Source: Pseudogymnoascus verrucosus
Lineage: Eukaryota
Length of the DNA stretch: 64,000 nt
Reading direction: 5' to 3' (one strand)
Assembly: GCA_001662655.1 (NCBI GenBank)
Contig: KV460228.1
Shown one piece after another: positions 39,184 through 62,269 of the stretch. The notes under the pieces were generated by a model. The model worked only from the letters and a program-made list of their open reading frames with translations. It was not told where the DNA came from and did no database searches. The position numbers were made by a program, and so were the translations under genes. Positions within the stretch are counted from its first letter, which is position 1; each line of letters begins with the position of its first letter.

Positions 39184-41510
39184 ATGAAGTCCTTCTCCTT
39201 CGTCCGCGACGTCGTCGTTGCCTGCGGCGTGCTGCAGTCCGTCGTCCATGGCGCAACTGTAGCACTCCAGGTCGACCTCCCCATCTCCGCCAGCACCCCG
39301 GATGTCGAATCAGACATCTCTGCCGTGTACTACTCCTCCCACCCACTTCTCTTCGGCAACGATGGATCAGCAGCAACAGGTGGCTATCACGCCTGGTCCC
39401 TCGACAGCAATGCCGCGATCCTGCCTGAGGTTTCGGCCAAGACGGGCGGCAGGTCGAAGCTCGTGGTGCCTGTGTATGGTGTCGGGAAGAAGGATTTGAT
39501 TATCACGATCGCGATGCCAGATAGTGTCTTGCGTGTCTTCGATGCTGGGAACAAGGGAGCCCAGTTGGCCGAGAAGAAGAACATTGGGGATTGGTCGGCG
39601 TTGTGCCCATGGAAGAGTGCTGAGAGTGGGAACCAGTACTTTTATATGTTTGGCAAGAAGCAGGCTATTCAGTACCTGGTTAGGCAGAGGGAGAAGAAGT
39701 TTGAGGTTGTTGAGGTAGGTTTATGGTTCTGGCCAGGAAGAAGAATCTTGCTAATTGGGACTAGATTCAAACCTTTGATCTGCCTGTGGAGGCTTCGGCT
39801 TGTGCTGTGTCTTCGAAGTCTGGCCTTGTCTATTTCAGTGGCGACGACAGCAAGGATGTGTACGCATTCAAAACTGCAGAGAGCACTGCCGCTGCCACTA
39901 TCAGTGTTATTGGAGAGGCCAGTGATGATGTGACTGGGCTCGCCATTTATGTTGGCAAATCGTCCGATTACCTTTTCGTTGCTCAAACAGACGTTGTTGG
40001 TGTATACTCAACCAAGTTCAAGGCTATAGGCTCTATGAAGATCACCGGTGTCGAGGATGCCGAAATTCAAGGCCTGTCGGTATATCAAGGAAAGACAAAG
40101 AAATACCCCGCGGGCGTTTTGGCATTCGCAATCGAACATGAGGAAGGAAAGGGCTTCGCCATCGGTTCCCTCCAATCTGCTTTCAAATCACTGAAATTAG
40201 ATGTCAACACTAACTACAACCCGAGCGCTAAGACCGATGATAAAGAGACCATCTGCGACGACTGCAACGATAATGGCTTTTGCGTCAAATCGCCTCGCAG
40301 GTCGTCTAGCAAGACCTGCTCCTGCTTCGCTGGCTTCACAGGAAAATCTTGCAAATCAGTCACCTGCACCGATAACTGCTCTGGCCACGGAAAATGCGTC
40401 GGAGCCAATGAATGCCGCTGCGACGCCGGCTGGGGTGGTCTGCACTGCTCATTCCTGCTTGTTGCGCCAAAGATCGAGACCGAGGCCAATGGCGGCGATG
40501 GTGACGATCCAGCTATCTGGATCTCTCCCATCTCCCCCGACCAGTCCCGCATTGTCACAACCACAAAATCCGAATTGGGTGCTGGTCTCGCAGTATTCAA
40601 CCTCGAGGGTAAAATCCTCCAGACCCTCCCAGCAGGCGAGCCTAACAACATCGACATGATCTACGGCTTCGAGCTTGGCAACAACCGCACCGTTGATCTC
40701 GCCTACGCCGCTTGCAGAAAGGAAAACACTCTGTGCCTCTTCGAAATGAGCGCCAATGGCACCCTCTCCAACATTTCCGGCGGCGAGCAGCCCGTCGTCG
40801 ACGACTACGACGTCTATGGCTCTTGCTCCTACCGCTCCCCCAAAACGGGAGTTCAGTACCTCTTTGTCAACAACAAGAAGGCAGTGTACCTTCAGTACGC
40901 CCTAACCTCCTCTTCTAACGGAACCCTCTCCACCACCCTTGTCAGGCAGTTTATCGCTGGCTCAGGTGGCCAAGTCGAGGGTTGCGTCACTGATGAAGAG
41001 AACGGTTTCCTCTTTGTCGGCGAGGAGCCCGAGGGTCTCTGGAGATACGACGCCGAGCCCGACGTCGCCGCACCCAAGGGCGTCAAGGTCGCCAGCGTAG
41101 CCACTTACCCTAACCACAAATCCGGGGACCTCTACTCCGACGTCGAGGGCGTGACGCTTGTCCCTGGGAAGACGGCCACTGAGGGCTTCCTCATGGTCAG
41201 CTGCCAGGGCGTGTCGGCCTATAATGTGTATGAGCGCGCGCCGCCGCATGCGTTCGTGCAGACATTCACTATTACCGACTCCACCGATGGGAGCGTGGAT
41301 CATGTCACTAACACGGATGGTATTGCGGTTGTTGGGAACAGACTTAATGCGGCGTTCCCTGCTGGATTAGTTGTGGTGCATGATGATGCTAATGAGTTGA
41401 AGGGAGGGGGAACGAGCGAGGAGGCGAGCTTTAAGCTGGTTAGTTTGGCGGATGTTTTGAAGGGGGGGTTGTTGGATAAGGTGGATAAGGAGTGGAATCC
41501 CAGGGCTTGA
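39184..41510 (+). CDS. Secreted beta-propeller (alkaline) 3-phytase with central EGF-like repeats
   Basis: Signal peptide; intron ~39715-39764; CSCFAGFTGKSC and CSGHGKC..CRCDAGWGGLHC; GDGDDPAIW, PNNID, QVEGCVTD, DVEGVTL and TDGI phytase motifs. Confidence 0.92.
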
Positions 41511-44991: not shown

Positions 44992-45195
44992 TGGGCGGTG
45001 AGGTCGTGGTTGTAGTTGTAGTTGAACAGCGCAGGTCGTTAATATGAGAAACTCGCCACCCTTGAAGCAAGTCTGAACCAGCACCGATTCGAGTGAAGTA
45101 AGCAAGACCTCTCAACATCGGCTCTAGTATCCGCACGCGATAGCTCAGTAGTATTGTATTTGATGATTGCTCGAGACCGAGGCATCATCCGGAGC

Positions 45196-46517
45196 CTACA
45201 AAGCCTTGAGCACATCTGCACCATCACGAAGACCTCCATCAACAAAGACTTCAATACTGCTGAGAACTTCGCGGTAATAGGTACGGATCTCTAGAAGAGT
45301 TAGGAGGGAACTCGGAGATCCATGGCTCTGTCTTCCTCTGTGATTGCTCAGGAGAACACCTTGGCATCCATATGCAGCAGCTAATTTGGCATCCGCTGCG
45401 GACTGGATTCCTTTGAGAACGATGGGCCCAGCCCATTCTTCTCTGATCCACTTCAAATCTTTCCATGTCAGGCTAGAGCTTAACTGTCCTGGCACTGCCC
45501 TACCTCCAAACGCTGGCGCGAAGCTGTTCTCACCTCACGCTTCTTTGACAATAGGTTTGGCTTCTTCTTCGACGCCCAATTCCAGGGCTTCTTGTGCTTG
45601 AAGGTACCGCGGTGCGTTTACCAAGCACAGGAGCGTCAACAGTAATCCACAGGCCCTTATAACCTGCCCTTTTCACCTTCTGAATGAGAGCCTTGGCTCG
45701 ATTTCGATCGGTGGAGATGTAGAGCAGGAAGTATAATTGTGCAGGAGCGGCGACACTACGCCCTTTCTGTTGGTCCACAAGAGTCTGCATGATTTCCTCG
45801 GCTGGCTTGGACGAAGCTGTGCTGATCACAGTGTGCACCCCTTTAGGTGTGACTCCCTTCACCAAGCCAAATTCTGCAGACGAGTGAGCCGAGCCCAAGG
45901 TTCCCATGGATGATACAAAAAATGATATTGTGAGGCATGGCCAAGGATGGACCTTCGCATGTCGATGGTCTCCACGTCTCATAGAACACGTGGGCGGAAA
46001 GATATGAGGGACCAATCATCCAGATTACGTCTCATGGATTGGCCCGAGTTAGCGGTGGCAGAGGCGTAAACCCAAGACTTGTTGGAGAGGATAGCCTTGG
46101 CCGGCGCTTCAAAGTCCGAGACTCTTACACAGAGAGATAAATGAGGAGGTGTATTGTCCTCACCAGTTGGGACCGACTGGGTCGAGGTTGACTTAGCCAG
46201 TGCCATATCCTTTGCCGTATTTGGATCCAGAGGACCTAAATGGCTGCCAGCTGGGAGCTGCTCTACGTAGTCTGGGGAATGGTACATACGCCGCCGTTGC
46301 ATCCTGGCGATAAATTTATCAATATGAACTAACGAAAAGCAAAGGAAGGGTGGCAGTGGAACCACGTGTGACATACGGTGCCTGCATTCCTCAGCAGGAT
46401 ATTAGCGCCTCCGGGGTGCTGAGAGAGAAACGCCGTGATATCGTATACTTGGAGACCGATAACGATCCAACATGACTCCTTTGACGAGTGGACCGCCACT
46501 TCAGCGCCGGTTAACAT
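45196..46517 (-). pseudogene. Flavocytochrome b2-like (cyt b5 + FMN-dependent 2-hydroxy-acid dehydrogenase) pseudogene
   Basis: CWIVI..VYDITAFLSQHPGG heme domain, FRPRVL, ITVDAPVLGKR, IVLKGIQ, SNHRGRQ (canonical SNHGGRQ) and DGGLRDGADVLKAL. Stops at 45979, 45535 and 45196; frameshifts near 46285, 45920 and 45610; C-terminus truncated. Confidence 0.88.
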
Positions 46518-46785
46518 TGTTGCTTCATGGGCCGGTCTTCACAGGCCAAGGTGTTTGGAGGAGACAATTGCGTAAGGAAAAGCGACCCCGAACGGGCGGT
46601 TTATATCATCTTCCACATCCCGTCCCAGTAAAATGCCGGCCAAAGAAAGGTGGGCCCAGCAAGTGTTGTAGGAATTATTTACACTAACCGATCGTGGTTA
46701 CTAGTAGATGTTAGACCTCATAGTCGGTAAGTCTAGCTCGTGCTGGTCTAGCTTGTTGTCTCGTCACCCTTTTTTTGGTGTTCTT

Positions 46786-46814
46786 TCGCCTCGCATCGCC
46801 TCGCGTCGCCTCGC
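46786..46814 (+). promoter_or_regulatory. (TCGCS)n element in the cyb2-like/transporter divergent promoter
   Basis: TCGCC TCGCA TCGCC TCGCG TCGCC TCGC; 46794-46808 matches the reverse complement of 55633-55647 exactly. Confidence 0.6.
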
Positions 46815-47129
46815 TATCTTCATCCCCACTCCCTTCCGCGCGCCTCCTGACCACATGGCGGCGTCTACCCCATACTCCGGACTCCAGACTCCATACTCCA
46901 TACCCCATATCCCGGGTTTGGGCTCCTGACTGCAGACTCGGCACTCCACAATTCAAATCTAGTATGTCTGTGCATTTTGACTGCTGGTTACAAATGCCGT
47001 CGATTCCTGCATCTGAAAATCCCAGCTTGAACCACTCGACTATGAATTTTCAATCTTGAGAATTACCATTATCAACACTGCTGTACCATCATCTCTTCCA
47101 CCCTTCAGTGTTTTTGTACGTTGTTCATC

Positions 47130-49230
47130 ATGGGTGGCTTTCGTGCTGCTGAAGATAGGCCTACGCCCAAAGAGGTTTATAACTGGCGCCTCTATACCGA
47201 AGCCATCATTATTGCTACTGGATCTCTACTGTGAGTTCGACACATTCTCCACTCCTCCACTTACTGATGACCTCATCTTACAGATTTGGCTATGACTCTG
47301 CATTCATTGGAACCACTATCTCCCGCACTAGTTTCAAGAATGACTTCGGCATAACTGCTGCCACAGCCAACTCTATATCCAGTAACATCACCTCTGCCTT
47401 CCAAGCTGGCGCCTTTTTCGGTGCTCTTTTTTGTTTCTTCAGTAAGTCCTATTCAAATTCACGTTCGCTATAATCCCTAATCCTCTTTCTCTTTTAGTTA
47501 CCGAGCGTCTTGGCCGGAAATGGGCTCTCCAAATCAACGTCGTCGTCTTCATTATCGGCTCAATTTTGATGACCGCTGCAACTAACCAGCTCTCGTTCAT
47601 ATGTAAGCCCCCCTGACACCCTCAATTAGCAAGTATTTACTAATGATTAACGTAGATGTGGGACGGGTTCTCACAGGACTGGGTTGCGGTGCTATCACGG
47701 CGACTGTCCCCAGTTACATTGCCGAGCTATCCATTCCATCCATCCGAGGAATGCTCACTGGCTTATTTGAAGTTGCTTACCAGATTGGTTCCGTCATTGG
47801 CTTCTGGATCAATTATGGAATTACTCAAAACATGTCATCCAGCTCGCCGAACAGCTGGAGAATCCCGATGGCTTTTCAGCTTGTCCCATCAGTTGTGCTT
47901 CTCATAGGAGGATTTTTCCTACATGAAAGTCCTCTCTGGCTCATGCGCAAGGATAAGCTCGAACAGGCTCACAAGTCTCTGGTGGATTTGAGAAAGCTGC
48001 CTCTGGAGGATCCTTGTAAGTCTTACCAGGTTTCAACTGTAGCTAAAATTAATGTCTGTAGATATTCAAGAGGAGCTTTCTGCCATTCGCTCAAGACTTC
48101 TGGAAGAGGCAGCCGTTTCGGGCAAGTACGGGACCGGTGCCTGGGCATTTTTCAGGGGTGCCATGGATGAGTTCTCCCAGAAGGGTATGAGAAATCGGCT
48201 CTTTCTCGTCTTCTGCGCTTTCTCTCTGGCAAATCTCTCTGGTGCATCAGGTATGTTTGACTTTCAGTTCTCTTTCAGATAAATAATCTGGATACTAATA
48301 TCTAGTTAGCGATTAATTACTACTCTCCAACGCTATTCGGATCCCTAGGAATTACTGATGTTGCACTTTATACTGGCATCTATGGTCTGGTCAAAGGTTT
48401 ATATCCAATCCATTTAAACCCATGCAAATTTCTAATATAAATACTAGCCATTGCTTCGATTATATTTTACGTCGGGCTTATTGACAAGCTTGGACGACGT
48501 CGCCCTGTTATTATTTCATGTTTTGTCTGCTCACTCTGTTTGTGGATTGTGGGTTCTTATGTCAAAATCGGCCACCCAGCTTCTATTATCAAAGAAGGAG
48601 GTGTATTGTCTGCATCTACGGCTGCCGGCGGCAAAGCCGCGACAGGAATGATTATGATCTATGCCTTCTTGTAGGTTCAAGTGGGCCATCCCATTCTCCA
48701 AACTTGATTGCTAATCATGAGCCTAGCTGGTCCTTCGGTTTGAATGGTATCCCATGGATCGTTTCCGCCGAAATCTTTCCTGGTGCTCTTCGAAACTTAT
48801 CTGGAACCTATACTGCTCTTGTGCAATGGTAAGTGAAGCTCAAGTTAAGCCGTGCGAACTTGAAGGAGAAGCTAACAATTTTTTGTTTTGCAGGGCTACC
48901 CAATTTGCTATCACCAAGGCCTTACCCTATATTTTTAGTTCCTTTGGCTTTGGCACCTGGTATTTCTTTGCCGCCTGGATGCTAATTGGCACGGCATGGG
49001 CATTCTTCCTCCTGCCCGAGACCAAGGGTCTTACGATCGACCAGATGGACCTGATTTTGTATGTCTTTCTCCGATCCCTTTCTGCAAAAAACTTACTAAC
49101 TTTTCGCAGCGGTTATCATAGTAGCGAACGCGTCGGGATACCACATACCTCGATCAGCCGCCGCTATACCAACATGAACCAAGACAAGGCAGGTGTAGAA
49201 GAGACTGAGAATGTTGATGAGAAGGTTTAA
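47130..49230 (+). CDS. MFS sugar-porter transporter, quinate permease (QutD/Qa-y)/sugar-acid type
   Basis: MGGFRAAEDRPTPKEVYNWRLY, FGYDSAFIG, ERLGRK, PSYIAELS..IRG, ESPLWL, DKLGRR, PWIVSAEIFP and PETKG; about 9 introns. Confidence 0.9.
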
Positions 49231-49909
49231 GAAATGATACTCCAGTGAGAGTTTTAGGGCAAAATTATATAGCTTCTACCTAATGCTCATATTTAACGCA
49301 ATATACTTTTCTAATATGTGGAATGAGACCCTTTGCCAAGTTACTACGAGATTTTTAAATAGGCTAATGACGAAAACTTTGAAGTTGTAGGCCCATATTG
49401 TGGTACTATCAATGTAGTATGGCGAGGGCAACAAGGGAATGGTTTTGTTTTATTATACGCAGCAAATGTTGAGTTTATTATTAAGTCAAGCTTATCATGC
49501 CGCAATAGCCATTCCTGGGGCATACTCTCTCTGATGTGCTCAACTCCCTACACCTACTTCCTCTACCAACGACATTAGTAGTTTGGGGTGTCTGTCTTAT
49601 CAGCGTAACGTCTTCCACTACAATGGTGCCGCTAGATATTGGCCTACGATCACATCCCTAATCCTGTCGCTTCATGAGTCCGTAATTGTGAGGCTGAATT
49701 CCCCGCTAAATTCTACGTAATACCTAACAACGCAAATAAATCCAATTTATGCGCTTCGCTCCCCATTCACGACATTGAGGAGTATCTGCGTGATTGATGC
49801 ACCTGAGTCGCCACCAAGAAAAATACCCAGACCTGTAGTGACGAGGATAGAACCGTTGGCAGTGAGCGACGCGACCACAAGGGACTCGATGAATACCCCG
49901 CACAGTGGC

Positions 49910-49929
49910 TCGCGTCGCGTCGCGTCGCC
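49910..49929 (+). promoter_or_regulatory. (TCGCG)3TCGCC element upstream of the aldolase
   Basis: TCGCGTCGCGTCGCGTCGCC, with an inverted GCGACGCGA at 49866. Confidence 0.55.
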
Positions 49930-50378
49930 CTGGGGAAAACTTCCCCGCACTATGTACCCCGCACCCCTCTCCCCCCTCATCCCTATGGATGATCATGACT
50001 ACCTATTACCATTTTAACAAAACGCGACCGCCAGTTAAAACTTCATATTTACGGTTTTTCACCAAAATTGCCTGCTAAAAGTGGATATCTACGAACTTCA
50101 AAGTAGCAGGTCACTGCGATCATTCACGAGGGATGGTGGGGGGTGGGGGTGGGGGTGGGGGGACACCCAACATGTAGGTGTGAAAGAAAGGGCTGACGAG
50201 AGACGACTACGTATGGTCTGAATTATCGTTTAATACTCACCTGCAATCATTAAAGCTGAACTATTTCATATTCTCTCCTGGCTCACTTCTGACTCTTCAT
50301 CATCACTTTCATACATACGAAGACCAATTAGTTTTATATCAACTGTACTAAGATATCTTGCTTTCAATAACGAACATC

Positions 50379-51542
50379 ATGGCAGTCTCTAAACTCAACG
50401 GAACGAATGGAACAGATGCACAGGCCGTAGGCAAAGCGTTTCCTCCTGGAGTCCATGTCCCCAGCTTGACATGGTTTGCCGACAACAAGACTCAAGAGAT
50501 TGATTGGGAAGTGCAAACAAGGCACATCCGCTTTCTAATTGAGTCAGGATTACACGGCAGTATGTTCTCTGCGCTGAGTAAACTCTGGGGACTTGAAATC
50601 TGACTTCTTACAGTTGTCATCGCCGGTACCAATGGAGAGGCGGTAACGCTCAGCTCCTCCGAGAAAGCTCAACTTATTAAGACAACACGCGACCAAGCTA
50701 TTGAGTTGGGTCGACCGGAACTGCCTATCACTGTTGGATGTGGTGGAGGATCGACAAGACAAGTGATTGAGGATACACAACTGGCAAAAGATTCTGGCGC
50801 TGATTTTGCACTCGTCTTGGTGCCGAGTTATTTCCACTTTGCCATGAACGAAGATGCGATCGTGGGATTCTTTGAGGAAGTATGTAGCCGGTCATATGTG
50901 TCTGACTCCATTTACTGACTGCGTTAATTTGTAGCTTGCCGACGCGAGTCCTATTCCTGTACTCATCTACAATTTCCCGGGAGTCGCAGCTGGCCTCGAT
51001 GTCAACTCGGAGATGCTATCAAAGCTAGGCGAACATCCCAATATCGTGGGAGTCAAGTTGACATGTGGTGGTATTGCTAAAGTTTCTCGGATACGAAACC
51101 AATTCTCTCCAGAACAGTTCTGTGCACTGGCTGGTCAAAGTGACTGGTTGTTGCCAGCAGTCTCTGTCGGTGGCATTGGAACCATTACAGGTCTTGCCAA
51201 CATCTACCCTAGAGTAAGTTTCATCTGGTTTCGAGCCCAATATTACTTCCACTAAACCTCATACCTGTCTAGACCTGCATAGAACTCTATAATCTATCAA
51301 TTGAAGGCACAACTCAAAAGGCTACGAAGGCCCAAAACGAACTGGCCGCGGTTGAGTGGGGCTTTGCAAAAGGCGGCATCAACGGCACTAAATGGGTAGT
51401 AGCTCAGTACCTTGGGTATCCAGAGAGTAGTTGTCACACGCGCAGACCATATCCACGATTCAGCGACGCCAAGAAGCAGGCTTGGATCACAGAGATTATG
51501 AAGCCCCTCGAAGAGCGGGAAAAGACACTTGCTAACTGTTGA
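50379..51542 (+). CDS. DHDPS/NAL-family class I aldolase (2-keto-3-deoxy sugar-acid or HOGA-like)
   Basis: PPGVHVPSLTWF, AGTNGE pyruvate-binding loop, LIYNFPGV (catalytic Tyr), IVGVKLTC (Schiff-base Lys), AGQSD and GTITGLAN; three introns. Confidence 0.9.
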
Positions 51543-52100
51543 GATTTCACTCCGTGCTCGGCGAAAAGAGGGGCGCCATGGCTACCGCCACTAGTCGCCA
51601 TCCCTCGGCACTCCTACTCTGGGTCTGGCCCAGGGACAGCAGCTGTAGCATATAGAACAGTTAAAGTGTTAGAATAGCTACCTTAACATAGAATATAATA
51701 TGACTTGATTCGGAGAATACCGTCTCCAATATGGTTCTATTTCTACTTTCTATTCTCCATCGCTACGTTGAATAATCTGGGGTAGGTACTTACCCCGCAT
51801 TACTTATACCATACAAATTTGCTGGTGCCAGCAGTTTGCCAAGAGTACCGCTCGTCGACAAACATTTGCGTAGTATGTCTTAGCGAGCAGCCGTACGTAC
51901 ACTGGAACATTCAACGCTAGATGACAGTAACTTATGCGCAAGAACCTCTGGATCCTGTGCTGATTTAAAACGTCCCAAAGGAGACGAAATCAGCTTTGAC
52001 GTGTCCAGCAATGGATCTGACATTGGTTTCTAATATACTTTTTAATATACGGTATATTACTTAACCATCTCTCGTCATACACCCCGGTGTTGACGCTGGT

Positions 52101-54092
52101 ATGGCTTCCGAGGCAGCCTCTGTGGCGGGCTCTGGGGCGGGCTCTGGACCTTCTCGCCGGCTTCCTAGATCTAAAGTTGGCTGTCTCACATGTCGGTATG
52201 TACCAATTGATGCCCTCACAATAGTTATACTAAGCAATAGCTAGTCGTCGGAGAGTGAGATGTAATGAGCAAAAGCCTCGATGCTCACACTGCGAGCGGC
52301 TGAATCTAGAATGTCTCTGGAGACCAATTGCGCCACTCTCAGCTAACCAGCGGCAACATACACCACAAACTGCCACAGACCAAAGGACTTTGCCCTACTC
52401 CGATGTTGGACAATCTACTGAAACTCCGAACGCCTTTGTTCGGAATAATAATAACTTCGCTACAGTCAATAGTGATTTTAACGATACTTTCAGCTATGCT
52501 AACTTCATGTGGGATCACGAGCTGCAGAGGAGCATGGTCCAGGACAGTTGGAATGACTGGGGCATTTCGAGTGCAAGCGGTGTTACAGAAGGCATCATGG
52601 CTGTATGTATTAAACCTTGGAAAGATTGCCCAATCTATACGATATTAACATGCTTTAGGAGGCATCAAGGCCGATGGAACAGTCATCCACCTTCTCAAAT
52701 CGTCCCAACTTCAATCACGAGAGGATTATCCCTGATATAGGCCCTGCGCGTGCTGAAACAAATCTAGTCATGGCATGGAATGACTCAGGAGGCGATGAAG
52801 ACACTTCTGAGGAGGATATCTTGAAGGATTATTTCGCCCAAACAGTCGTCCCGCCAATTATTGCGCAAGTGGAGACCCAGTCGAAGTGGTCATCCACGCG
52901 TCAAATACTTATCACTATGTCAACGAACTCTAGCATGGTCCACAATGCAATCTTGGCCTTCTCAGACCTTCTCATGAAGAGAACTCAAACCGCCCACAAT
53001 TTAAGTCGCCATCGGTATTACAAACGTGCTAAAGCTGAACTATTAAGGGCACGTAAAGAGCAGTTGCTTGGGAAGGATGCTGCATCGCCAGCTTCGTTTG
53101 ATGAGATGCTTGCAGTCCTGTTCTTTCTTAGCTATATTGATCTGCTGGAGAGCAGAGTAGCCAATGCCCACGATAATCTTAAAGAAGCCTATAGTATCTT
53201 CCAGCAGATTGGCAATGTTCAGTCTCGAACGGTCACTAGGCGCCTCATTTCTTGGATACGTCTCCTAGATGCAAGGGCCGCTACTACTGGTGGCGAGGGG
53301 CTTTTTCTCGCAGAAGATAACGATGTCCTTACACAGCCTTCACCCTCATTCACCGACGGTCTAGAAGCAGGAAGCAACAGCAGTAATCACGAAGCTCTGG
53401 GTGAGACTGACATCGAGGATGTTCTTTTTGAATCCCTCTATCAACCTGGCTTTGTCTTCTTCCAAAAAATACAATCTTTCATGGGTCGTATTTCAAATAT
53501 CGACCCTTGGCATCGTTCAAGAGGGACCGTAGCAGATGAGACAGAGGTGATGAGAGTTGCTGATAAGATTTCCCATGACCTTGGGACGCTATGGGAAGCT
53601 CGCCCACCACTTATGGACTATACGTTAACAGGACAACTGGCTGCACCACACGTCTCAGCAAGCTTGGCCTACACCTTGACACGAACATTTCGGACATTCT
53701 TTGCTAACTACCATGCGTCTCATATTCACCTCCACCGTGTGGCATATAAACACCTTCCGCTATCTCCACAAACATTAAAATCCATCGCCAATATTCGAAA
53801 TACAGCGCATGACATGGTCCAGCTACAACCTGTAGCACAGGATCCTTCCCGGGATATGCTTCCTGTTAATATGCTATGGCCTTTGCTCATGTGGGGCTGC
53901 GAAGAAGACGACCCGGAGGAGAGATTATGGATTACAACGCAAATAAAAACGATGGAGACGGTGGCCACGAATGCGAATATCACAGCTCAGGTGCTTAATG
54001 AGGTACAGGCGAGGCAAGACGCACAGAGGCAGAGGATCGATGTGCGAACTGTCATGCACGAGATATTCGATTCGTGCTTTGCTATTGTTTAA
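52101..54092 (+). CDS. Zn2Cys6 transcription factor with Fungal_trans_2-type C-terminal domain
   Basis: RSKVGCLTCR|RRRVRCNEQKPRCSHCERLNLEC across intron ~52196-52244; second intron ~52604-52638; C-terminal MLWPLLMWGCE. Confidence 0.9.
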
Positions 54093-54221
54093 ATAGCTTG
54101 TGTGTTTTACGATGACACAATACCAGAAGTATTAGAAATGGAAGAGACACCAGTACAACACACCTGTACAACTAGCAGTGTTGTTTGTACTTTATCAAGC
54201 TCTATATTTCCAGTACAACTC

Positions 54222-55196
54222 TCATATGGGGCCAACTTCATCTGCCCAAGGGATTGCCACCTGCGCCCCTCTCTTGCCAACTGTTTTTGCAGCGGCGGCA
54301 TTTGCCTTTCGCACTGCAACATCGATGTCGAAATCCACCTTCACTGCCTCCAGCGCATACGCTCCAACAAACGTATCTCCCGCCGCAGTCGTGTCCACGA
54401 CCTCGACTTTCTTTGCTTTGACAAATCCGGAGAGGCCTGCGTCCTGGGAGTAGAATACCCCTTGGCTTCCTAGCGTGATCACTACGTTGTGTACGCCTCT
54501 GGAGTGAAAAACTCGTGCAGCTATCGGCAAAAGACTATCGTTTTTGATCTGCTCAACGCTGTAACCTGATAAGATTGATGCCTCTGTCTCATTCAGGATC
54601 AAGTGCCGTAAATTGGCGTATGCCTCTGCTGGAAGCTCGATTGCGGGGGCGGGGTTGAGTAGGATCTCAATGCCTGCTTCACGTGCTGCCTTCAGGATCT
54701 GCAGTGTTGTCTGAAGCGGTATCTCGAGTTGGAGAATTAATAGCGATGGTTTTGGATTGGGGATCGTGACAAATAGTGATGGTGAGAGAGAGTAGTTTGC
54801 TCCACCGTTAAGAAGAATTCGATTCTCGCCTGTTGATTCTTCGACAAGAATAATTGCCACTCCCGTTTCAATTTCGGTTTGTATCGTGATGCCGGATATA
54901 TCGACGCCGCTAGCGCGCAGGTTGTTTAGTAGAAGCTGCCCATGCTGGTCGTTTCCTACTGCGCCAATCATGCGGATGTCTGCTGAGCCATTGTTTACAT
55001 CATTCCTTGTTCTCGACAGCTTTGCACATGCCGCTGCTTGGTTACCGCCCTTTCCTCCTGCGCCAGTCTTGACTGATCTGGCATGAAGTGTTTCGCCGCC
55101 GCTAGGTATCCTCGAAGTATAGGTTGTTATGTCTGCATTAAGAGAGCCAATGATAGTGATGAGTCTAAGGGGAAGAAGAGATTCATGGCTCGCCAT
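54222..55196 (-). CDS. RBK1: Ribokinase (PfkB family)
   Basis: IIGSLNAD, GGKGGNQA, LQLEIP, LNPAPA, LNETEA, ITLGSQG and DTTAAGDTF; intronless, 324 aa. Confidence 0.9.
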   Translation of the reverse strand: MASHESLLPLRLITIIGSLNADITTYTSRIPSGGETLHARSVKTGAGGKGGNQAAACAKLSRTRNDVNNGSADIRMIGAVGNDQHGQLLLNNLRASGVDISGITIQTEIETGVAIILVEESTGENRILLNGGANYSLSPSLFVTIPNPKPSLLILQLEIPLQTTLQILKAAREAGIEILLNPAPAIELPAEAYANLRHLILNETEASILSGYSVEQIKNDSLLPIAARVFHSRGVHNVVITLGSQGVFYSQDAGLSGFVKAKKVEVVDTTAAGDTFVGAYALEAVKVDFDIDVAVRKANAAAAKTVGKRGAQVAIPWADEVGPI

Positions 55197-55531
55197 GTTT
55201 TTATAGTGTAACAGAGAGCAAATACCAATTGCTCTGTAAAGTTGATTATAGAAATGTGCAACAGTGGCTCAAATCGGTGTCAGATAAATGTCTCACTGAA
55301 AGGAATATTTAAAATAATTAAGTTATTAAATATAAATGGCGACGTACGCTGTTATGCTTATTACGAGTGTCACTTGCATGTTTGCAACTAGTATAAATAG
55401 TAAAGCAAAATAGTCTTTAGCATTGGTAATATTTCTGGCACCTCGGAGCCTGGCTCGCCACCCTTCAGACAGTGAGGCTTCTGTAGTCACACTTGCAAAA
55501 CTCGCCGCTCTGCCGGTGCAACTAGTTTAAT

Positions 55532-55647
55532 CGACGCGATGAGGCGACGACAGGTGCTCCCTAGTAAACTATTGGATGTCGAAACCATAGTGAAAGGAAA
55601 GTGGGGGAAGTAAGGTCAAGTGTTAAAATAACCGACGCGAGGCGATG
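55532..55647 (-). promoter_or_regulatory. Two (TCGCS)n-type elements upstream of ribokinase
   Basis: Minus strand CATCGCCTCGCGTCG (55633-55647) and TCGTCGCCTCATCGCGTCG (55532-55550). Confidence 0.55.
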
Positions 55648-56043: not shown

Positions 56044-59000
56044 CTAACTGGAAGCACCTTGCTGGCACCATTCTATGAGTGCGGTTAGAGTCCCGACCGC
56101 CCTCCGACTATCCCCCCACCTTTTCAACTCCATCAACAACTTACGCCCCTCGATTAGTACGCGCATTGGTCCCCGCGCGCCACACAGATTCCCCACCCCC
56201 GTAACAACTGCACGCATTCCCCCACCCTTCTTCACAAACAGCTGAACCAACTCATCATCTGCCGGCCGATCCAACCGCATTAACGTTGGAAACAATGCGT
56301 CCACGTCGTCCTCGTCCTCGGGCGACTCCCCGTCTTTCAACGCTGGTGTATAAGTCGCAAATGTCCCATACGCCCACATCGCGAGAGTAGCGAGGAACAC
56401 CCCGGCCGGCTCGTAGAACGCGTCGGCTGAGTAGCGGCGTACATGCCAAAATAGCACCCCTGCATGGATCATGGCCAGGCGCGCTTTATACTGGTCCTCC
56501 TGCGCCCAGCGGCGGACGTAGTCCTGCATGCTAGCCAACTCAGCATCGGATGCTGGTATAGCTTCTCCGGCGCGGAAGCTAGCCAGACCCACAATGTGAC
56601 TCAATGGCGTGAGGAGGACGACGCGGGCGAGGTGGAGATGTAGGACCGTGGGGTGTTCCATCCCAGAAGCGACACCAATGACGCTGTTAGCATGCCAGTG
56701 TAGGATGTCGAGGACGTCGCAGGCCGAGTTGCGCCATTTGGCATATGTCGAAATACCAGGGAGCCAGACAGGCATAGACTTTTCTATAATGCTTATACTC
56801 TGCTTTTCTGCTTTCGGGCTCCAGAGAGTGAGGGGCTGCTGGAAGAAGGCTGCTACTTCATGGGTTCGCCGGAAGAGGGCATGAATGCAGAGGATACGGC
56901 TGAATTCGCCCATAGACGATTGGAGATGCTTCTCCACGTATGCGAGTTGGATGGCGGCATGTAGTGAGGGGTTTGCTAAGGCTTCGTAAGCATTCTAGCC
57001 TAGAGTTGACCTCGGGAGGTAGGCTTCTTACGTGTAGAGGCTCCGTAGAGCTGCTGCCAGTCAAGTGCGGACTCGGCCTCCCAAAGGACTTCCTGACACG
57101 GTAGGGGAACTCTGGCATCTTCCAAGGTCAGGACTGAGCGTGCTCTAAAGTGAAAGCTCGACATGCAGTCTAACATCTACAAAATCGCTTGTTAGTTGGC
57201 CCGCTAAGCTTGCCACGTAAACGTACCCATACGCAGTATCCAGTCCGGCGACGACTTTCTTCCTTGTACCAAATTTTCCAGCCATTGCTTGCCGTGGCTA
57301 AATTTCCAGACAGATCAGAGCCGGTTGGCGACGTTGATGAAGCCCATTCGCTGCAGCAGAAATAATTAAAATCGCTTTGGTATGCACTAACAAATCTCTT
57401 CAGACGTGTGTCACCACCATACGAGATCCCAATAATGTTAAGTAGCTTAGCTTGTATTAAAACTAGCCCGTCAGGTCTTGCACCATCGTCGGCTTCAATC
57501 TGTTCACAAGAATGGTCAGGGCTTCACTTAATCGATGGAGTGGCTAGCAATTGGAGCTTACAACAGTCTGGATTGCACGACGTGTAAATTCATGCATGGC
57601 AACGATGAAAATACCATTGTCTTCGGATTCCATGTAATGGCTTCCGATTGAGGCCAAAGACAATACTAGCAGCCAGTGCATTGTCGATAAATCGAGCGTG
57701 GGATGGTGTAAAAAAGGGAGAATTGGTTGGAAATTATCCAAATAAAGGAAAACCAGTTGGCTGAAAATTCTAATAGGGGGAAACGTTTCTCTTGCAAACG
57801 GTGAGTAATGTGTACTTATAATACACGTCTGTTTGAATACTCGAAGAATCTCATTATATGTTGTGTGCGGGAGCTCTTTGATGTTGGGGGTGGAGTTCTC
57901 GAGACGTTCGCTAACCTCTGGGAAGATGAATCCGTCACCATGCATTGCATTCTCATGGTGGTGTGTAGGTGTAAATGACTCGGTCCTATATGGTGCCTTA
58001 CGGACTCGAGGTAGCCGCGCACCGTCTCCATCAATATAGAAGTGGCCAGCAGACGGTGTGCTTTGTGACCTTTCGGCGCCTTGATTCCCTATCGGAGATG
58101 GGTAACTGTGAGGGGAACTCCGTTCTTGGGGTGATGACATGTGTAATGCTGCGTTCTCATATGTCATAGCACAACTCACAGCGCCAATTCCAGGTGCATT
58201 CCCGAGAAGATGAGAAGGCCTCTGATCAAATGGTTCGATGCCCGCGTCTCTGTCCTCCATAGGGAAGTCTGGTGTCCAAGCATCTGACAGCCAGTTTATG
58301 GACGAGAAACCATTTTGATACCACGGCTCCGTGGCTTGGGTAGGTCCGTGGTAATCATTCTGTGTATTTGGAGGCTGGGAGACTGCCGTATTTTGAAAGC
58401 TAGGACTGCTAGGCAGTGGGGGGTTATTAGAGCTGAAAATTGTCTGATTTTCAGAAATTAGAGATGAGATGTTCATTGGCGACTGAGACTCTGCAACATG
58501 GAGTTGGGCTCGCAATGGAGATATTGGATTATCAAATAAGTGGCCATTCTGCGCAGAGTGGCCGTTGTACCTGATTTCAGCACCACTCTTAGGGTTCAAA
58601 GTATGCTCACCTACACCAGCTTGGTCACCAACGACTGGGCGGTAACCAATGTCAAGGCCCTTGGAGGCAACCGGCGACTGAGAGGCATTGGACCAGGACA
58701 TGATCGATCCATGGGGACTCGCTACCATATGCTCGGCGCTCGAGCCATTCGACGCTTCCTCAGGAGTTGAGGTCAGATTCTCCGGCCGGCTCTTGCCCGC
58801 CGCGGGATACTGGCACTCGAGGGAGCGCCTCTCGCAGGTTGAGCACGGGGTCTGGCCGCTGCACTTTGTCCGTGACGCGGCGCAGGAAAGGCATGCTCGA
58901 GCCCCCCTTCCAAGCGCGCTACGCTTGGGCTCGGAGTGAACCTTCTCATGGCGCTTCAGGGCGTCGCTGCGGCTAGCTGTTAGACCGATAATATCACGTG

Positions 59001-59230
59001 CTTCGATGAAACAGAACTGAAGCTGACCCAACTTACAGTCTGTAGAAGCCCTTGCGACAGTAGCTGCATTGCAGGTATCGCTCAGTCTTGTGACTACGCG
59101 CGTGGCGAGTGAGATGCTCGACGCGTCGGAATGCATAGTGGCACTCGAGGCACTTGAAGGGCCGCTCTAGGTGGCTCCTCTGCGCCGCATCGAGAGCGTT
59201 TATGCTGAGTCTAGCGCTCTGATCTATCAT
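56044..59230 (-). CDS. Hybrid transcription factor: two C2H2 fingers + Zn2Cys6 cluster + Fungal_trans domain
   Basis: FKCLECHYAFRRVEHLTRHARSH, CSYCRKGFYRL|DALKRHEKVH, ACLSCAASRTKCSGQTPCSTC..C, FQPILPFLHHPT and LPCQEVLWEA; four introns. Confidence 0.9.
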
Positions 59231-59878
59231 GGATAGACCAGTTAGTAATGGAGTAGGAGTTCAGAGGCGGGCCTCCAGAGCTTGCTTACCCATGTCCGGC
59301 ACGGTCTACCAGTCACAATCACCAATTATAAGGGCGATTGGTAGTCGTTTAGTCGTTTAGGTAGGGGTTGGAGATAGAGTCTTCGGGTTCCTGTGGGGGA
59401 AGGGACCAGCATATACTGTCTCGTTCTGCCTCTGTCTCACGTGCCAGGTAGAGTTGACAGGGTTGACATCAAAACGGCACTCGAACGGTATTGTTAGAGT
59501 TCTGTAATGGTGTATTAGGGGAAATGCGCGCACACATTGCATGTAACCGGGGTAGATTTGGTGGTGCTCGAGTACCGCCCAGGCCCCGGATCTGCCGCTC
59601 AAGCTGTTGTTGCCCTGAATGGCACCCCCATGCTTGGTAGGTAACCCCACCGGAGTTACCCCGCATTCTAACATCTACAGTTGTGTAAGCGGGTCCCCCG
59701 ACGACCCCACATCGGACGGACCCTGCTTTCCTTTCCGGCCGGATAAGAGCTTCTACGAATATCGTGACGATAACGATTCTGTCGTCAGTCACGCGTCACG
59801 GTACATCGACAAATTTGAGTTTTAACAACCGCAAGCAAGTCTATTCTATGTTCAGAGTGTACTGTACTATTCTAGCTA

Positions 59879-62046: not shown

Positions 62047-62269
62047 GATTGAGATGGAGGAAGGTAGCCCTGTCTATCTTGATATAAAATTATGTATGAG
62101 AGAAGAATATATAAACTCAGGCAGAATATAGTAGCGCCTCTACAGTAGCTTATGCTGATTATTTATGAGCCAATGACAGATGCTTGATAGAAAAAACGTG
62201 CCAGCCTTGATGTTTTATACATGCTCCACTGTTCGGTGGACGGTGGGTGATGGATAGAGCTGTCTCCAT

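What the first reader, a model, noticed from the sequence alone, without database searches (positions are those of the whole stretch)
45196..55647. Candidate undescribed keto-deoxy sugar-acid catabolic gene cluster (cluster A)
Seen: five contiguous genes, namely a 2-hydroxy-acid dehydrogenase pseudogene, an acid-type MFS permease, a pyruvate-releasing class I aldolase, a Zn2Cys6 factor and a ribokinase. Established: DHDPS/NAL aldolases cleave 2-keto-3-deoxy acids to pyruvate plus an aldehyde or aldose, and the known fungal galacturonate (GaaC) and rhamnose (LRA4) routes need a dehydratase and no kinase. Inference: there is no dehydratase here but there is a pentose kinase, so the imported substrate may already be a 3-deoxy-2-ulosonate. 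An 8-carbon one such as Kdo (plant rhamnogalacturonan-II, bacterial LPS) would give pyruvate + D-arabinose for the kinase. Alternatively the flavocytochrome once oxidised a 3-deoxy-aldonate to the 2-keto acid, or recycled lactate. I do not recognise this gene set as a characterised fungal pathway.
Basis: partly seen in the sequence, partly recalled or inferred. Interest (0 to 1): 0.85.

Follow-up and report, generated by a model that had tools for sequence, protein, structure and literature searches.

The report
Conserved fungal acid-aldolase-ribokinase gene cluster
A Pseudogymnoascus-type fungus carries a transporter, a pyruvate-releasing aldolase, a regulator and a ribokinase side by side, the same neighbours recur in many other fungi, and the compound they break down is still unknown.

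Summary
All five genes are at the stated place. Four are intact: a QutD-like MFS transporter of 536 aa, a DHDPS/NAL-family class I aldolase of 331 aa, a Zn2Cys6 factor of 628 aa and a ribokinase of 324 aa. The flavocytochrome b2 gene is a true pseudogene; contigs of related strains carry the bases this strain has lost.

The linkage is conserved. Aldolase and ribokinase lie at most 2 genes apart in 8 of 11 named Leotiomycete and Sordariomycete species checked, and on metagenome contig L003 in a different gene order. MFS-aldolase-TF is the wider core.

A rare 8-mer, TCGCGTCG, occurs 8 times in the 64-kb window (1.3 expected). All 8 copies lie in the cluster, 7 of them upstream of the MFS, aldolase and ribokinase genes.

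The aldolase family is distinct. Its closest characterised relative is human HOGA1. Top hits include no Aspergillus or Trichoderma, so a GaaC/LGA1 orthologue is unlikely. No dehydratase lies in any of 5 loci.

The ribokinase is the ordinary orthologue with a canonical ribose site. This weakens the Kdo-to-D-arabinose idea, which stays untested.

Verdict: a real, probably co-regulated, undescribed catabolic cluster with an unknown substrate.

The parts
45196..46517 (-). Flavocytochrome b2-type (Cyt-b5 + FMN-dependent L-2-hydroxy-acid dehydrogenase) pseudogene. ATG at 46517, one intron after the heme domain, decayed tail running to about 45040.
   Evidence: Pfam Cyt-b5 and FMN_dh pieces leave profile gaps at 41-58, 155-196 and 293-350. 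The three-frame reading shows a frameshift near 46285, TGA at about 45981, a frameshift near 45920, a frameshift near 45606, TGA at 45535 and TAG at 45196. Related strains have +5 nt behind 46284, CGA instead of TGA at 45981, +1 nt near 45916-45925, +5 nt behind 45606 and about 457 nt more at 45198/45199.
46794..46809 (+). Candidate shared cis-element (CATCGCCTCGCGTCG) in the divergent flavocytochrome/MFS intergenic region, 329 nt upstream of the MFS ATG.
   Evidence: The same 15-mer occurs upstream of the ribokinase.
47130..49230 (+). MFS sugar-porter-family transporter of the QutD/quinate-permease-like subfamily. 10 exons, 536 aa, intact.
   Evidence: Pfam Sugar_tr on four exon pieces. Spliced model open with 9 GT..AG introns. 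Homologues are widely named quinate permease or QutD by their sources.
49866..49928 (.). Four copies of TCGCGTCG, three in tandem on + and one inverted, 450-510 nt upstream of the aldolase ATG.
50379..51542 (+). DHDPS/NAL-family class I (Schiff-base) aldolase. Exons 50379-50559, 50614-50879, 50935-51213 and 51273-51542. 331 aa, intact.
   Evidence: Model; Pfam DHDPS. 81% identical to the Hyaloscypha orthologue. The GTNGE motif, the Tyr of IYNFP and the Lys of GVKLT align with Ser77-Asn78, Tyr168 and Lys196 of human HOGA1.
52101..54092 (+). Zn2Cys6 + Fungal_trans_2 transcription factor. Exons 52101-52195, 52245-52602 and 52659-54092. 628 aa, intact.
   Evidence: Pfam; model. Orthologues lie next to the aldolase in L001, L003, L005, L041 and L048. 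Fused gene models occur in public annotations: P0028 and P0049, and P0452, P0463, P0486 and P0492.
54222..55196 (-). Ribokinase (pfkB family). Single exon, 324 aa, intact, convergent with the TF.
   Evidence: TIGR02152 279.8 bits against a cut-off of 299.65; best non-ribokinase model 82.5 bits. All 15 PDB matches are ribokinases, and the NAD, GGKGxNQA, LQLE, NETEA and DTxAAGDTF motifs are kept.
55532..55640 (-). Two copies of TCGCGTCG, 336 and 437 nt upstream of the ribokinase ATG. One lies inside the 15-mer shared with the MFS promoter.

Best explanation
This is a conserved catabolic gene cluster of filamentous ascomycetes, controlled by a transcription factor. The window comes from a Pseudogymnoascus-like Leotiomycete.

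The core is three genes: a QutD/quinate-permease-like MFS symporter, a HOGA/NAL-like class I aldolase and a Zn2Cys6 regulator. Two accessory genes join it in many lineages: the ordinary ribokinase and a 2-hydroxy-acid dehydrogenase.

The proposed course is as follows.
1. The permease takes up an organic (sugar) acid. It either already is a 4-hydroxy-2-oxo (keto-deoxy) acid or is one oxidation away from it. No dehydratase is part of the cluster.
2. Where present, the 2-hydroxy-acid dehydrogenase interconverts the 2-hydroxy and 2-oxo forms, or handles the small aldehyde or acid product. It is FMN/cytochrome b2-type in Pseudogymnoascus relatives and NAD-dependent, D-mandelate-dehydrogenase-like, elsewhere.
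3. The aldolase forms a Schiff base through its Lys and splits the acid into pyruvate plus an aldehyde.
4. The ribokinase is expressed with the other genes and phosphorylates D-ribose or a close analogue that arrives with the same nutrient or arises from it.

In this strain the flavocytochrome step has been lost.

Shown: the gene identities, their intactness, the pseudogene, the conserved linkage and the shared promoter 8-mer. Inferred: co-regulation by this TF, acid uptake, the aldol cleavage products and the role of the kinase. The substrate is unknown.
For: Identities and models.

Conserved aldolase-ribokinase linkage, from accessions or locus tags at most 2 apart:
- Cadophora sp. M221 IFR05_016079/016077 and Thyridium E0L32_010261/010263.
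- Acephala KAF8860392/94, Pleurostoma KAJ9136908/09 and Thozetella KAH8894574/72.
- Phialocephala CZR69287/89, Mollisia KUJ20802/04 and Hyaloscypha bicolor PMD60000/02.
- This makes 8 of 11 named species checked.
- In Pseudogymnoascus VKM F-3775 the ribokinase is V491_00930 and the MFS V491_00933.
- One 7249-bp contig length is shared by an MFS, an aldolase and a ribokinase cluster.

Locus L003 has the order TF(+), 2-Hacid_dh(-), ribokinase(-), aldolase(+). That order differs from the window, so proximity has survived rearrangement.

Core MFS-aldolase-TF: 5 of 12 orthologous metagenome loci have the MFS next to the aldolase and 5 of 12 have the TF next to it. Adjacent locus tags occur in Cosmosporella and Stylonectria.

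Shared cis-element: TCGCGTCG occurs 8 times in the window against 1.30 expected, and 0 of 100 shuffles reach 8. All 8 lie between 46801 and 55640. An empirical null of random four-segment draws from outside the cluster reached the observed value in 4 of 500 draws. A 15-mer is identical between the MFS and ribokinase upstream regions. The motif is also in the aldolase promoters of L047 and L005.

Dehydrogenase: L003 and L041 carry orthologous D-2-hydroxy-acid dehydrogenases, 55-66% identical, whose best PDB match is D-mandelate dehydrogenase at 279 bits. The flavocytochrome looks intact in relatives.

No dehydratase family was found in the window or in L003, L005, L012 or L041.
Against: - The ribokinase is not a cluster-specific paralogue. 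Linked and unlinked Sordariomycete orthologues are equally similar to it, and no species appears twice among the 120 listed hits, apart from two assemblies of Ustulina that are 98.5% identical. Its presence could therefore be inherited synteny.
- The ribokinase is unlinked in 3 of 11 named species: Microdochium trichocladiopsis, Stylonectria and Cosmosporella. It is also absent within 6-10 kb in L012 and L041.
- The motif was found by exploration. As a single 8-mer shared by 5 of 16 promoters it lies inside the shuffle null of 4-6. Three of the 8 copies are overlapping tandem units and one lies in a coding exon. It is absent from the ribokinase-aldolase intergenic region of L003.
- There are no expression data.
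- No known natural 3-deoxy-ulosonic acid yields D-ribose on aldol cleavage (my knowledge).
- Whether the permease carries an acid rests only on names given by sources and on a recalled N-terminal motif.
Confidence: 0.5

Rival explanations
1. Only MFS-aldolase-TF is a functional unit. The ribokinase is the housekeeping ribose-salvage enzyme and sits there through inherited microsynteny, without a biochemical link. The flavocytochrome was likewise just a neighbour.
For: - The ribokinase belongs to one orthologous group whether linked or not.
- It keeps a canonical ribose site.
- It is absent from the cluster in 3 of 11 named species and in L012 and L041.
- The core trio is much more widely linked.
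- No chemistry connects ribose with a pyruvate aldolase (my knowledge).
Against: - Adjacency persists across two classes of fungi.
- It survives a change of gene order and orientation in L003.
- The rare 8-mer and a 15-mer are shared between the ribokinase and MFS upstream regions.
Confidence: 0.25
2. A glyoxylate-type module. The aldolase is a true 4-hydroxy-2-oxoglutarate-like aldolase, acting on a small hydroxy-oxo dicarboxylate and giving pyruvate plus glyoxylate or a similar C2-C3 oxo-acid. The two kinds of 2-hydroxy-acid dehydrogenase interconvert glyoxylate and glycolate, or hydroxypyruvate and glycerate. This parallels human HOGA1, GRHPR and HAO1.
For: - Human HOGA1 is the closest characterised relative by sequence (124 bits) and by fold (TM 0.79-0.87).
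- The Asn that binds the distal carboxylate of HOG is kept, and the Ser that binds the 4-OH is replaced by Thr (residue roles from passages of PMC3188589).
- Both dehydrogenase families that handle glyoxylate or glycolate recur beside the aldolase.
- Sources often name family members 4-hydroxy-2-oxoglutarate aldolase.
Against: - Identity to HOGA1 is only about 29%.
- In human HOGA1 the S77T variant lowers kcat and S198T raises Km 7-fold, and the fungal family has Thr at both positions.
- An invariant polar Q-S-D-W stretch replaces S-A-G-F of HOGA1 next to the pocket Gly.
- The L003 dehydrogenase is nearer to D-mandelate dehydrogenase (279 bits) than to glyoxylate reductases (151 bits).
- A sugar-porter-type permease and a ribokinase are not explained.
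Confidence: 0.2
3. A free 3-deoxy-2-ulosonic acid of 8-9 carbons, such as Kdo or Kdn, is imported and split into pyruvate plus an aldose. The pentose, D-arabinose from Kdo, is phosphorylated by the ribokinase.
For: - No dehydratase in 5 of 5 loci.
- The kinase is linked and possibly co-regulated.
- The sister clade of this aldolase family (100/98 support) contains L006, where the aldolase sits beside a sialidase-like BNR_2 protein, an aldo-keto reductase, a flavocytochrome b2 and an MFS.
- Invariant polar residues (QSD) lie where NAL binds the polyol tail. The positional equivalence is recalled, not tested.
Against: - The kinase is the generic ribokinase with an unchanged ribose site.
- D-arabinose is a poor ribokinase substrate, and fungi are not known to have arabinose-5-phosphate isomerase (my knowledge).
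- No ulosonate-releasing hydrolase lies in the window.
- The only hint in an orthologous locus is one Asp-box in L005, with BNR_2 at E = 0.002, below threshold.
Confidence: 0.08
4. A semi-phosphorylative keto-deoxy-acid route of the archaeal type. The ribokinase-like enzyme phosphorylates the imported keto-deoxy acid itself. KDG in its furanose form is 2-deoxy-D-ribofuranose carrying a carboxylate on the anomeric carbon. The DHDPS-type aldolase then cleaves the phosphate ester to pyruvate plus glyceraldehyde 3-phosphate.
For: - The family pair pfkB kinase plus DHDPS-type aldolase is the pair used by Sulfolobus and Thermoproteus (recalled).
- The archaeal KD(P)G aldolase model hits the family at 88-96 bits.
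- There is no dehydratase.
- The gene for fungal KDG cleavage is reported as unknown (passage of PMC9781776).
Against: - The kinase scores 279.8 bits on the ribokinase model but only 58.8 and 41.8 bits on the KDG-kinase models.
- It is the general ribokinase orthologue.
- The aldolase family seems absent from Aspergillus, where KDG aldolase activity was described: none among the 120 best hits.
Confidence: 0.07

Closest known systems
Fungal D-galacturonate genes (GaaA/GAR1, GaaB/LGD1, GaaC/LGA1, GatA transporter, GaaR)
   Same: Both combine a DHDPS-family aldolase that releases pyruvate from a keto-deoxy sugar acid, a QutD-like permease for the acid and a Zn2Cys6 regulator. The pathway is taken from passages of PMC9781776 and PMC12370193. 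The family membership of GatA and GaaR is recalled.
   Different: Here there is no reductase and no dehydratase. The TF carries Fungal_trans_2 (PF11951), not the domain recalled for GaaR. The 120 best aldolase hits contain no Aspergillus, Trichoderma, Botrytis or Neurospora, genera that have GaaC/LGA1. A ribokinase is attached.
Fungal L-rhamnose cluster (LRA1-4; LraA, LrlA, LrdA, LkaA)
   Same: It is a catabolic cluster ending in a keto-deoxy-acid aldolase that gives pyruvate plus an aldehyde. L-lactaldehyde to L-lactate would give a role to a flavocytochrome b2.
   Different: The aldolase of locus L019, which sits beside an enolase-superfamily dehydratase, falls in a separate, well supported clade. 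The window has no dehydrogenase, lactonase or dehydratase. Calling L019 LRA-like rests on its gene context only.
Human HOGA1 (4-hydroxy-2-oxoglutarate aldolase), with GRHPR and HAO1
   Same: It is the closest characterised relative. The Schiff-base Lys, the relay Tyr and the GxxGE motif with Asn are conserved. The same two dehydrogenase families accompany it.
   Different: Identity is about 29%. The fungal family has Thr where HOGA1 has Ser77 and Ser198, and a different pocket stretch, QSDW against SAGF. A permease and a ribokinase are present. The N-terminus has no Arg/Lys-rich stretch by eye; no targeting predictor was run.
PDB 3QFE, putative DHDPS-family protein of Coccidioides immitis
   Same: It is the best sequence match (199.9 bits) and the best fold match (TM 0.81-0.88).
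   Different: Identity is only 32-33%, so it is a paralogue. The entry states no function.
Bacterial sialic-acid genes (NanA lyase, NanT transporter, NanK kinase)
   Same: The logic is the same: import a free ulosonic acid, split off pyruvate with a DHDPS/NAL-family lyase and phosphorylate the released sugar (recalled).
   Different: The kinase family differs: ROK in nan, pfkB ribokinase here. The NAL models score only 70-93 bits against cut-offs of 281-382.
Archaeal semi-phosphorylative Entner-Doudoroff module (KDG kinase plus KD(P)G aldolase)
   Same: It uses the same two superfamilies, pfkB and DHDPS (recalled; for the aldolase model hit).
   Different: The kinase belongs to the ribokinase subfamily, not the KDG-kinase subfamily.

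Membership tests
DHDPS/NAL class I aldolase superfamily (PF00701) | TIM-barrel fold with a C-terminal helical bundle | tested here: met
   The model of orthologue P0001, which is 81% identical to the window protein, has pLDDT 85.8. Its TM-scores to 3QFE, 3S5O and DHDPS structures are 0.75-0.89. The window protein itself was not folded, because it is spliced.
DHDPS/NAL class I aldolase superfamily (PF00701) | Schiff-base Lys, relay Tyr and the GxxGE carboxylate-binding motif | tested here: met
   The window protein has GTNGE, IYNFP and GVKLT. In the orthologue these align with G76-E80, Tyr168 and Lys196 of HOGA1. They are invariant in 14 of 14 family members.
4-hydroxy-2-oxoglutarate aldolase (HOGA1 type) | Asn78 (distal carboxylate) and Ser198 (4-hydroxyl), named as unique substrate-binding residues in PMC3188589 | tested here: inconclusive
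   Asn is kept in 13 of 14 members. Ser198 is Thr and Ser77 is Thr. In the human enzyme the S77T and S198T variants are impaired.
4-hydroxy-2-oxoglutarate aldolase (HOGA1 type) | Cleavage of 4-hydroxy-2-oxoglutarate to pyruvate plus glyoxylate | not testable with these tools
   This needs an enzyme assay.
[quoted passage not shown] | Orthology with the Aspergillus niger and Trichoderma reesei enzymes | tested here: inconclusive
   No reference sequence could be brought in. Indirect evidence points against orthology: none of the 120 best hits (72-89% identity on exon 3) comes from Aspergillus, Trichoderma, Botrytis or Neurospora, although the family is 61-84% identical across three classes. One member is named after LGA1 by its source (P0047).
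Ribokinase (EC 2.7.1.15, TIGR02152) | Score on the equivalog model | tested here: inconclusive
   279.8 bits against a cut-off of 299.65. The model is curated for bacteria. The best non-ribokinase model scores 82.5 bits.
Ribokinase (EC 2.7.1.15, TIGR02152) | Ribose- and ATP-site motifs of E. coli ribokinase: N-x-D, GGKGxNQ, the Glu of LQLE, NETE and DTxAAGD | tested here: met
   All are present and aligned with 1GQT/1RKD. The residue roles are recalled.
Flavocytochrome b2 (L-lactate or L-mandelate:cytochrome c oxidoreductase) | An open reading frame spanning the Cyt-b5 and complete FMN_dh domains | tested here: not met
   The frame has two in-frame stops and at least three frameshifts, and FMN_dh profile positions 293-350 are missing. 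Relatives carry the missing bases.
Sugar-porter MFS, quinate-permease (QutD/GatA-like) subfamily | Sugar_tr domain; carboxylate-sugar or quinate specificity | tested here: inconclusive
   Sugar_tr is met. The subfamily is suggested only by names that sources give to hits 66-92% identical. Specificity is not testable here.
Fungal catabolic gene cluster with a pathway-specific Zn2Cys6 regulator | Conserved physical linkage of transporter, enzyme(s) and regulator across species | tested here: met
Fungal catabolic gene cluster with a pathway-specific Zn2Cys6 regulator | Co-induction of the members by the substrate | not testable with these tools
   No RNA run was available. The shared 8-mer is only indirect.

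The most novel reading that the evidence does not exclude
Filamentous ascomycetes have a dedicated route, so far undescribed, for free keto-deoxy (3-deoxy-2-ulosonic) acids taken up from the environment. Such acids could come from bacterial or plant glycans or from lyase products. The route needs no dehydratase and couples a HOGA/NAL-like aldolase with a ribokinase-type kinase. The kinase acts either on a pentose released by cleavage of a C8 acid such as Kdo, or on the acid itself as in the archaeal semi-phosphorylative Entner-Doudoroff branch. That would supply genes for an orphan activity (Kdo aldolase or fungal KDG cleavage) and a new role for ribokinase.
Probability: 0.13. Interest if true: 0.8.

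Novelty: new variant of a known kind. Interest (0 to 1): 0.55.

Why it matters
Fungal sugar-acid catabolism still has orphan steps. One paper states that the gene or genes for cleaving 2-keto-3-deoxy-D-gluconate remain unknown in the six fungi it studied (passage of PMC9781776).

This cluster is conserved in many plant-associated and soil ascomycetes and has a simple make-up: permease, aldolase, regulator, kinase and sometimes a 2-hydroxy-acid dehydrogenase. It also offers natural knock-outs of one member, because the flavocytochrome is dead in this strain and looks intact in relatives.

It is therefore a tractable entry point to a nutrient that these fungi use and that no model of fungal carbon metabolism lists. 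If the ribokinase really is part of the pathway, it would be an unusual link between pentose salvage and an acid-cleaving aldolase.

Tried and rejected
- No whole genome is held for this window. I could not test whether a second ribokinase exists or where the dehydratases lie.
- Earlier-findings look-ups by place and by sequence gave nothing.
- The protein atlas only returned 'dihydrodipicolinate synthase' clusters.
- Names of ten paralogue representatives did not identify GaaC/LGA1. No reference GaaC, LRA4, HOGA1 or NAL sequence could be put into the tree. The tree therefore separates clades by gene context only.
- A search for CGG/CCG-type Zn2Cys6 half-site pairs shared by 17 upstream and intergenic regions found no pattern in more than 6 of them.
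- The roughly 35-42% identical metagenome loci that I sampled (8 loci) turned out to be eukaryotic paralogues with sparse ORFs and not bacterial operons, so no operon context could be used.
- No RNA holder was listed for the region, so expression and splicing were not checked.
- The ORF downstream of the aldolase in L005 has one Asp-box, with BNR_2 at E = 0.002 and no PDB match. I rejected it as evidence for a sialidase.
- The Kdnase preprint mentions aldolase only as a synthesis reagent.
- Literature searches found no description of the cluster:
  - ribokinase + dihydrodipicolinate synthase + fungal + gene cluster
  - ribokinase / Zn2Cys6 / D-ribose / Aspergillus
  - 4-hydroxy-2-oxoglutarate aldolase / fungus / quinate permease
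  - Pseudogymnoascus + ribokinase
  - N-acetylneuraminate lyase / fungi / Kdn / gene cluster
- I did not open Supplementary Table S3 of PMC9781776, which gives gene numbers per reaction and may bear on ribokinase copy number in other fungi.

Full report
**What is in the window**

The window is fungal. The ribokinase is 95%, 87% and 85% identical to proteins of three Pseudogymnoascus species. The best named aldolase hit is Hyaloscypha. No whole genome is held for it.

These are a Cyt-b5 plus FMN_dh gene on the minus strand, a Sugar_tr MFS, a DHDPS-family protein, a Zn_clus plus Fungal_trans_2 factor and a PfkB kinase.

I built gene models from the sequence. All introns are 46-65 nt and GT..AG.
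- Aldolase: 50379-51542, 4 exons, 331 aa.
- MFS: 47130-49230, 10 exons, 536 aa.
- TF: 52101-54092, 3 exons, 628 aa, with a regular C-x2-C-x6-C-x6-C-x2-C-x6-C zinc cluster.
- Ribokinase: 55196-54222, one exon, 324 aa.

Because spliced proteins could not be handed to the other tools, searches used single exons or stored orthologues.

**The flavocytochrome is a genuine pseudogene**

The three-frame reading shows these breaks:
- a frameshift inside the heme domain near 46285
- an in-frame TGA at about 45981, in the conserved FRPRVL-x-DV stretch
- frameshifts near 45920 and 45606
- a TGA at 45535
- a TAG at 45196, after which the last roughly 60 residues of the FMN domain are missing (Pfam profile gaps)

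I laid contigs of four related strains on 45100-46600. They carry:
- 5 extra bases behind 46284 (3 of 4 runs)
- G for A at 45981, which turns TGA into CGA on the coding strand (3 of 4)
- one extra base near 45916-45925 (3 of 4)
- 5 extra bases behind 45606 (4 of 4)
- about 457 more bases between 45198 and 45199 (2 runs)

The nearest strain, X2, shares some of the lesions but not all. The gene therefore decayed stepwise in this lineage and looks intact in relatives. The ancestral Pseudogymnoascus cluster thus included a working L-2-hydroxy-acid:cytochrome c-type dehydrogenase.

**What the intact proteins are**

*Kinase.* It scores 279.8 bits on the ribokinase equivalog TIGR02152 (cut-off 299.65). 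It scores 242.7 bits on a second ribokinase model. The best model for any other activity gives 82.5 bits, and the KDG-kinase models give 58.8 and 41.8 bits. All 15 PDB matches are ribokinases. The alignment with E. coli ribokinase keeps the N-x-D, GGKGxNQA, LQLE, NETEA and DTxAAGDTF motifs. The residue roles are recalled.

*Aldolase.* It belongs to a tight family, with 61-84% identity to Hyaloscypha across Leotio-, Sordario-, Dothideo- and one Eurotiomycete and 75% mean column identity.
- Its best PDB relative is 3QFE, a Coccidioides protein of unstated function (199.9 bits). Human HOGA1 follows at 124 bits and then the DHDPS enzymes. A model of the orthologue gives the same order by fold.
- The Schiff-base Lys, the relay Tyr and the GxxGE motif are conserved.
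- The motif reads G-T-N-G-E, keeping the Asn that binds the distal carboxylate of 4-hydroxy-2-oxoglutarate in HOGA1. The Ser that binds the 4-hydroxyl is a Thr (residue roles from passages of PMC3188589).
- None of the NCBIfam equivalogs (DapA, NAL, KdgD, archaeal KD(P)G aldolase) comes near its cut-off.

*Tree.* In a tree of 37 rows, the window protein sits in a clade supported at 99/98. The sister clade (100/98) contains locus L006. There the aldolase lies beside a sialidase-like BNR_2 protein, an aldo-keto reductase, a flavocytochrome b2, an MFS and a Zn2Cys6 factor. Locus L019, whose aldolase lies beside an enolase-superfamily dehydratase (a rhamnose-type context), is in a different clade.

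*GaaC/LGA1.* I could not bring in reference GaaC/LGA1 sequences. The 120 best hits of exon 3 (72-89% identity) contain no Aspergillus, Trichoderma, Botrytis or Neurospora. These genera have the galacturonate aldolase, so orthology with GaaC/LGA1 is unlikely, though not excluded.

*MFS.* Its homologues are widely named quinate permease or QutD by their sources. This fits an acid-type permease but is not a test.

**Is the linkage conserved?**

Yes.

Aldolase and ribokinase have accession numbers or locus tags at most two apart in 8 of the 11 named species for which I could compare both:
- Leotiomycetes: Cadophora sp. M221, Acephala macrosclerotiorum, Phialocephala subalpina, Mollisia scopiformis and Hyaloscypha bicolor
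- Sordariomycetes: Thyridium curvatum, Thozetella sp. and Pleurostoma richardsiae

They are apart in Microdochium trichocladiopsis, Stylonectria norvegica and Cosmosporella sp. Sarocladium strictum could not be judged, because the contig lengths differ and may come from different assemblies.

In Pseudogymnoascus VKM F-3775 the ribokinase (V491_00930) and the MFS (V491_00933) bracket two genes, as in the window.

The one metagenome scan returned 80 loci. Twelve of them hold orthologues, 57-76% identical.
- The MFS is the neighbour of the aldolase, or of the TF next to it, in 5.
- The TF is next to the aldolase in 5.
- The ribokinase is present in 1 (L003).
- 3 short contigs show no neighbour.

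L003 has the order TF(+), D-2-hydroxy-acid dehydrogenase(-), ribokinase(-), aldolase(+). Its order and orientation differ from the window, so proximity has been kept through rearrangement.

L012 and L041 have no ribokinase within 6-10 kb. L041 and L003 share an orthologous NAD-type D-2-hydroxy-acid dehydrogenase, whose best PDB relative is D-mandelate dehydrogenase of Rhodotorula (279 bits).

Fused gene models support the core trio. Aldolase plus TF is fused in Oculimacula and Monosporascus. MFS plus TF is fused in four Aureobasidium clusters. MFS and aldolase have adjacent tags in Cosmosporella and Stylonectria.

No dehydratase family appears in the window or in L003, L005, L012 or L041. ORFs under 110-130 aa were not scanned.

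**Is the ribokinase a special copy?**

No. Its identity to the window protein is the same for Sordariomycetes in which it is linked (53.5-55.2%) and unlinked (53.7-54.5%). Among the 120 listed hits no species appears twice, apart from two Ustulina assemblies that are 98.5% identical.

So it is the lineage's ordinary ribokinase. Whether it is the only one in this genome could not be tested.

**A hint of co-regulation**

Looking for words shared by upstream regions, I found TCGCGTCG. It occurs 8 times in the 64-kb window against 1.30 expected, and 0 of 100 shuffles reach 8. All eight copies lie between 46801 and 55640:
- one in the flavocytochrome/MFS intergenic region
- four 450-510 nt upstream of the aldolase
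- one in aldolase exon 3
- two 336 and 437 nt upstream of the ribokinase

A 15-mer, CATCGCCTCGCGTCG, is identical between the MFS and ribokinase upstream regions. The word also sits in the aldolase promoters of L047 (twice) and L005.

The caveats are real. The motif was found by exploration. As a word shared by 5 of 16 promoters it is within the shuffle null. Three copies are overlapping tandem units. L003 lacks it.

I drew an empirical null of four segments of the same lengths from the rest of the window. It reached the observed count in 4 of 500 draws. I take this as moderate support that the MFS, aldolase and ribokinase genes share a regulatory element in this species.

**Interpretation**

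The firm result is a conserved core of permease, class I aldolase and regulator. The ordinary ribokinase and a 2-hydroxy-acid dehydrogenase, of either the FMN or the NAD type, recurrently join it.

The most economical mechanism has four steps:
1. Uptake of an organic acid.
2. Where the dehydrogenase is present, interconversion of the 2-hydroxy and 2-oxo forms, or handling of a C2-C3 product.
3. Schiff-base cleavage into pyruvate plus an aldehyde.
4. Phosphorylation of ribose, or a close analogue, that comes with the same nutrient.

I cannot name the substrate.

- The kinase has an unchanged ribose site and is the generic orthologue.
- No hydrolase is present in the window.
- To my knowledge, fungi lack arabinose-5-phosphate isomerase.

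The sialidase-linked sister clade (L006) keeps a ulosonic-acid theme alive for the wider family.

A glyoxylate-type reading explains the HOGA-like residues and both dehydrogenase families. It does not explain the permease type or the kinase.

A purely syntenic, non-functional presence of the ribokinase remains a serious rival.

**Novelty**

Five full-text searches found no description of this gene set. A 2022 survey states that the gene or genes for KDG cleavage remain unknown in the six fungi it studied (passage of PMC9781776).

I rate it a new variant of a known kind: a fungal keto-deoxy-acid cluster without a dehydratase and with a ribokinase. It is of moderate to good interest as a lead. 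The decisive work is expression profiling, deletion of the TF and enzyme assays.

Noticed in passing
window 56047-63810: A second possible sugar-use cluster lies directly beside the first. It has a large Zn2Cys6 factor on the minus strand (Zn_clus at 57547-59166; the ORF 56047-56994 looks like its C-terminal part). It also has a GH127 beta-L-arabinofuranosidase (59882-62073, minus strand) and another Sugar_tr transporter (62967-63810, plus strand, running to the window end).
   Followed up: partly
L006:7351-17853: A paralogous metagenome cluster holds a Zn2Cys6 factor, a DHDPS-family aldolase (42% to the query), a BNR_2 sialidase-like protein, an aldo-keto reductase, a flavocytochrome b2 and an MFS. 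It looks like a candidate fungal cluster for a sialic-acid-like or Kdn-like ulosonic acid. Its aldolase clade is sister to the window's family.
   Followed up: partly
L019:4834-17337: A DHDPS-family aldolase lies next to an enolase-superfamily (MR_MLE_C) dehydratase, a Fungal_trans factor and a ketopantoate-reductase-like gene. The layout is of the L-rhamnose/L-fucose type and the aldolase falls in a separate clade.
   Followed up: no
L013:12494-13090 and L016:14249-15271: D-isomer-specific 2-hydroxy-acid dehydrogenase genes lie 2-3 kb downstream of aldolases only about 40% identical to the query. The aldolase-dehydrogenase pairing therefore recurs outside the window's own family.
   Followed up: no
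L012:5268-6863: An FAD-dependent oxidoreductase (DAO family) lies directly beside the MFS of an orthologous MFS-aldolase pair. That locus has no TF, ribokinase or 2-hydroxy-acid dehydrogenase.
   Followed up: no
window 49910-49928: The aldolase promoter holds a short tandem array, (TCGCG)n reading TCGCGTCGCGTCGCGTCGCC, with an inverted copy 40 nt upstream. This resembles a clustered binding site.
   Followed up: partly
window 39765-41507: A phytase-domain (PF02333) protein carries EGF-like repeats at its N-terminus, an unusual pairing.
   Followed up: no
window 20000-28000: This stretch has lower G+C (0.44-0.46 against about 0.52). It holds a cytochrome P450 fragment (22572-23321, minus strand), a methyltransferase (25510-26151) and a riboflavin-synthase-like gene (27591-28262).
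   Followed up: no
window 14021-20058: Ordinary housekeeping neighbours: a velvet-domain factor, a MUS81-type endonuclease and a phosphoacetylglucosamine mutase. Further on lies an Nramp transporter (32326-33750).
   Followed up: no
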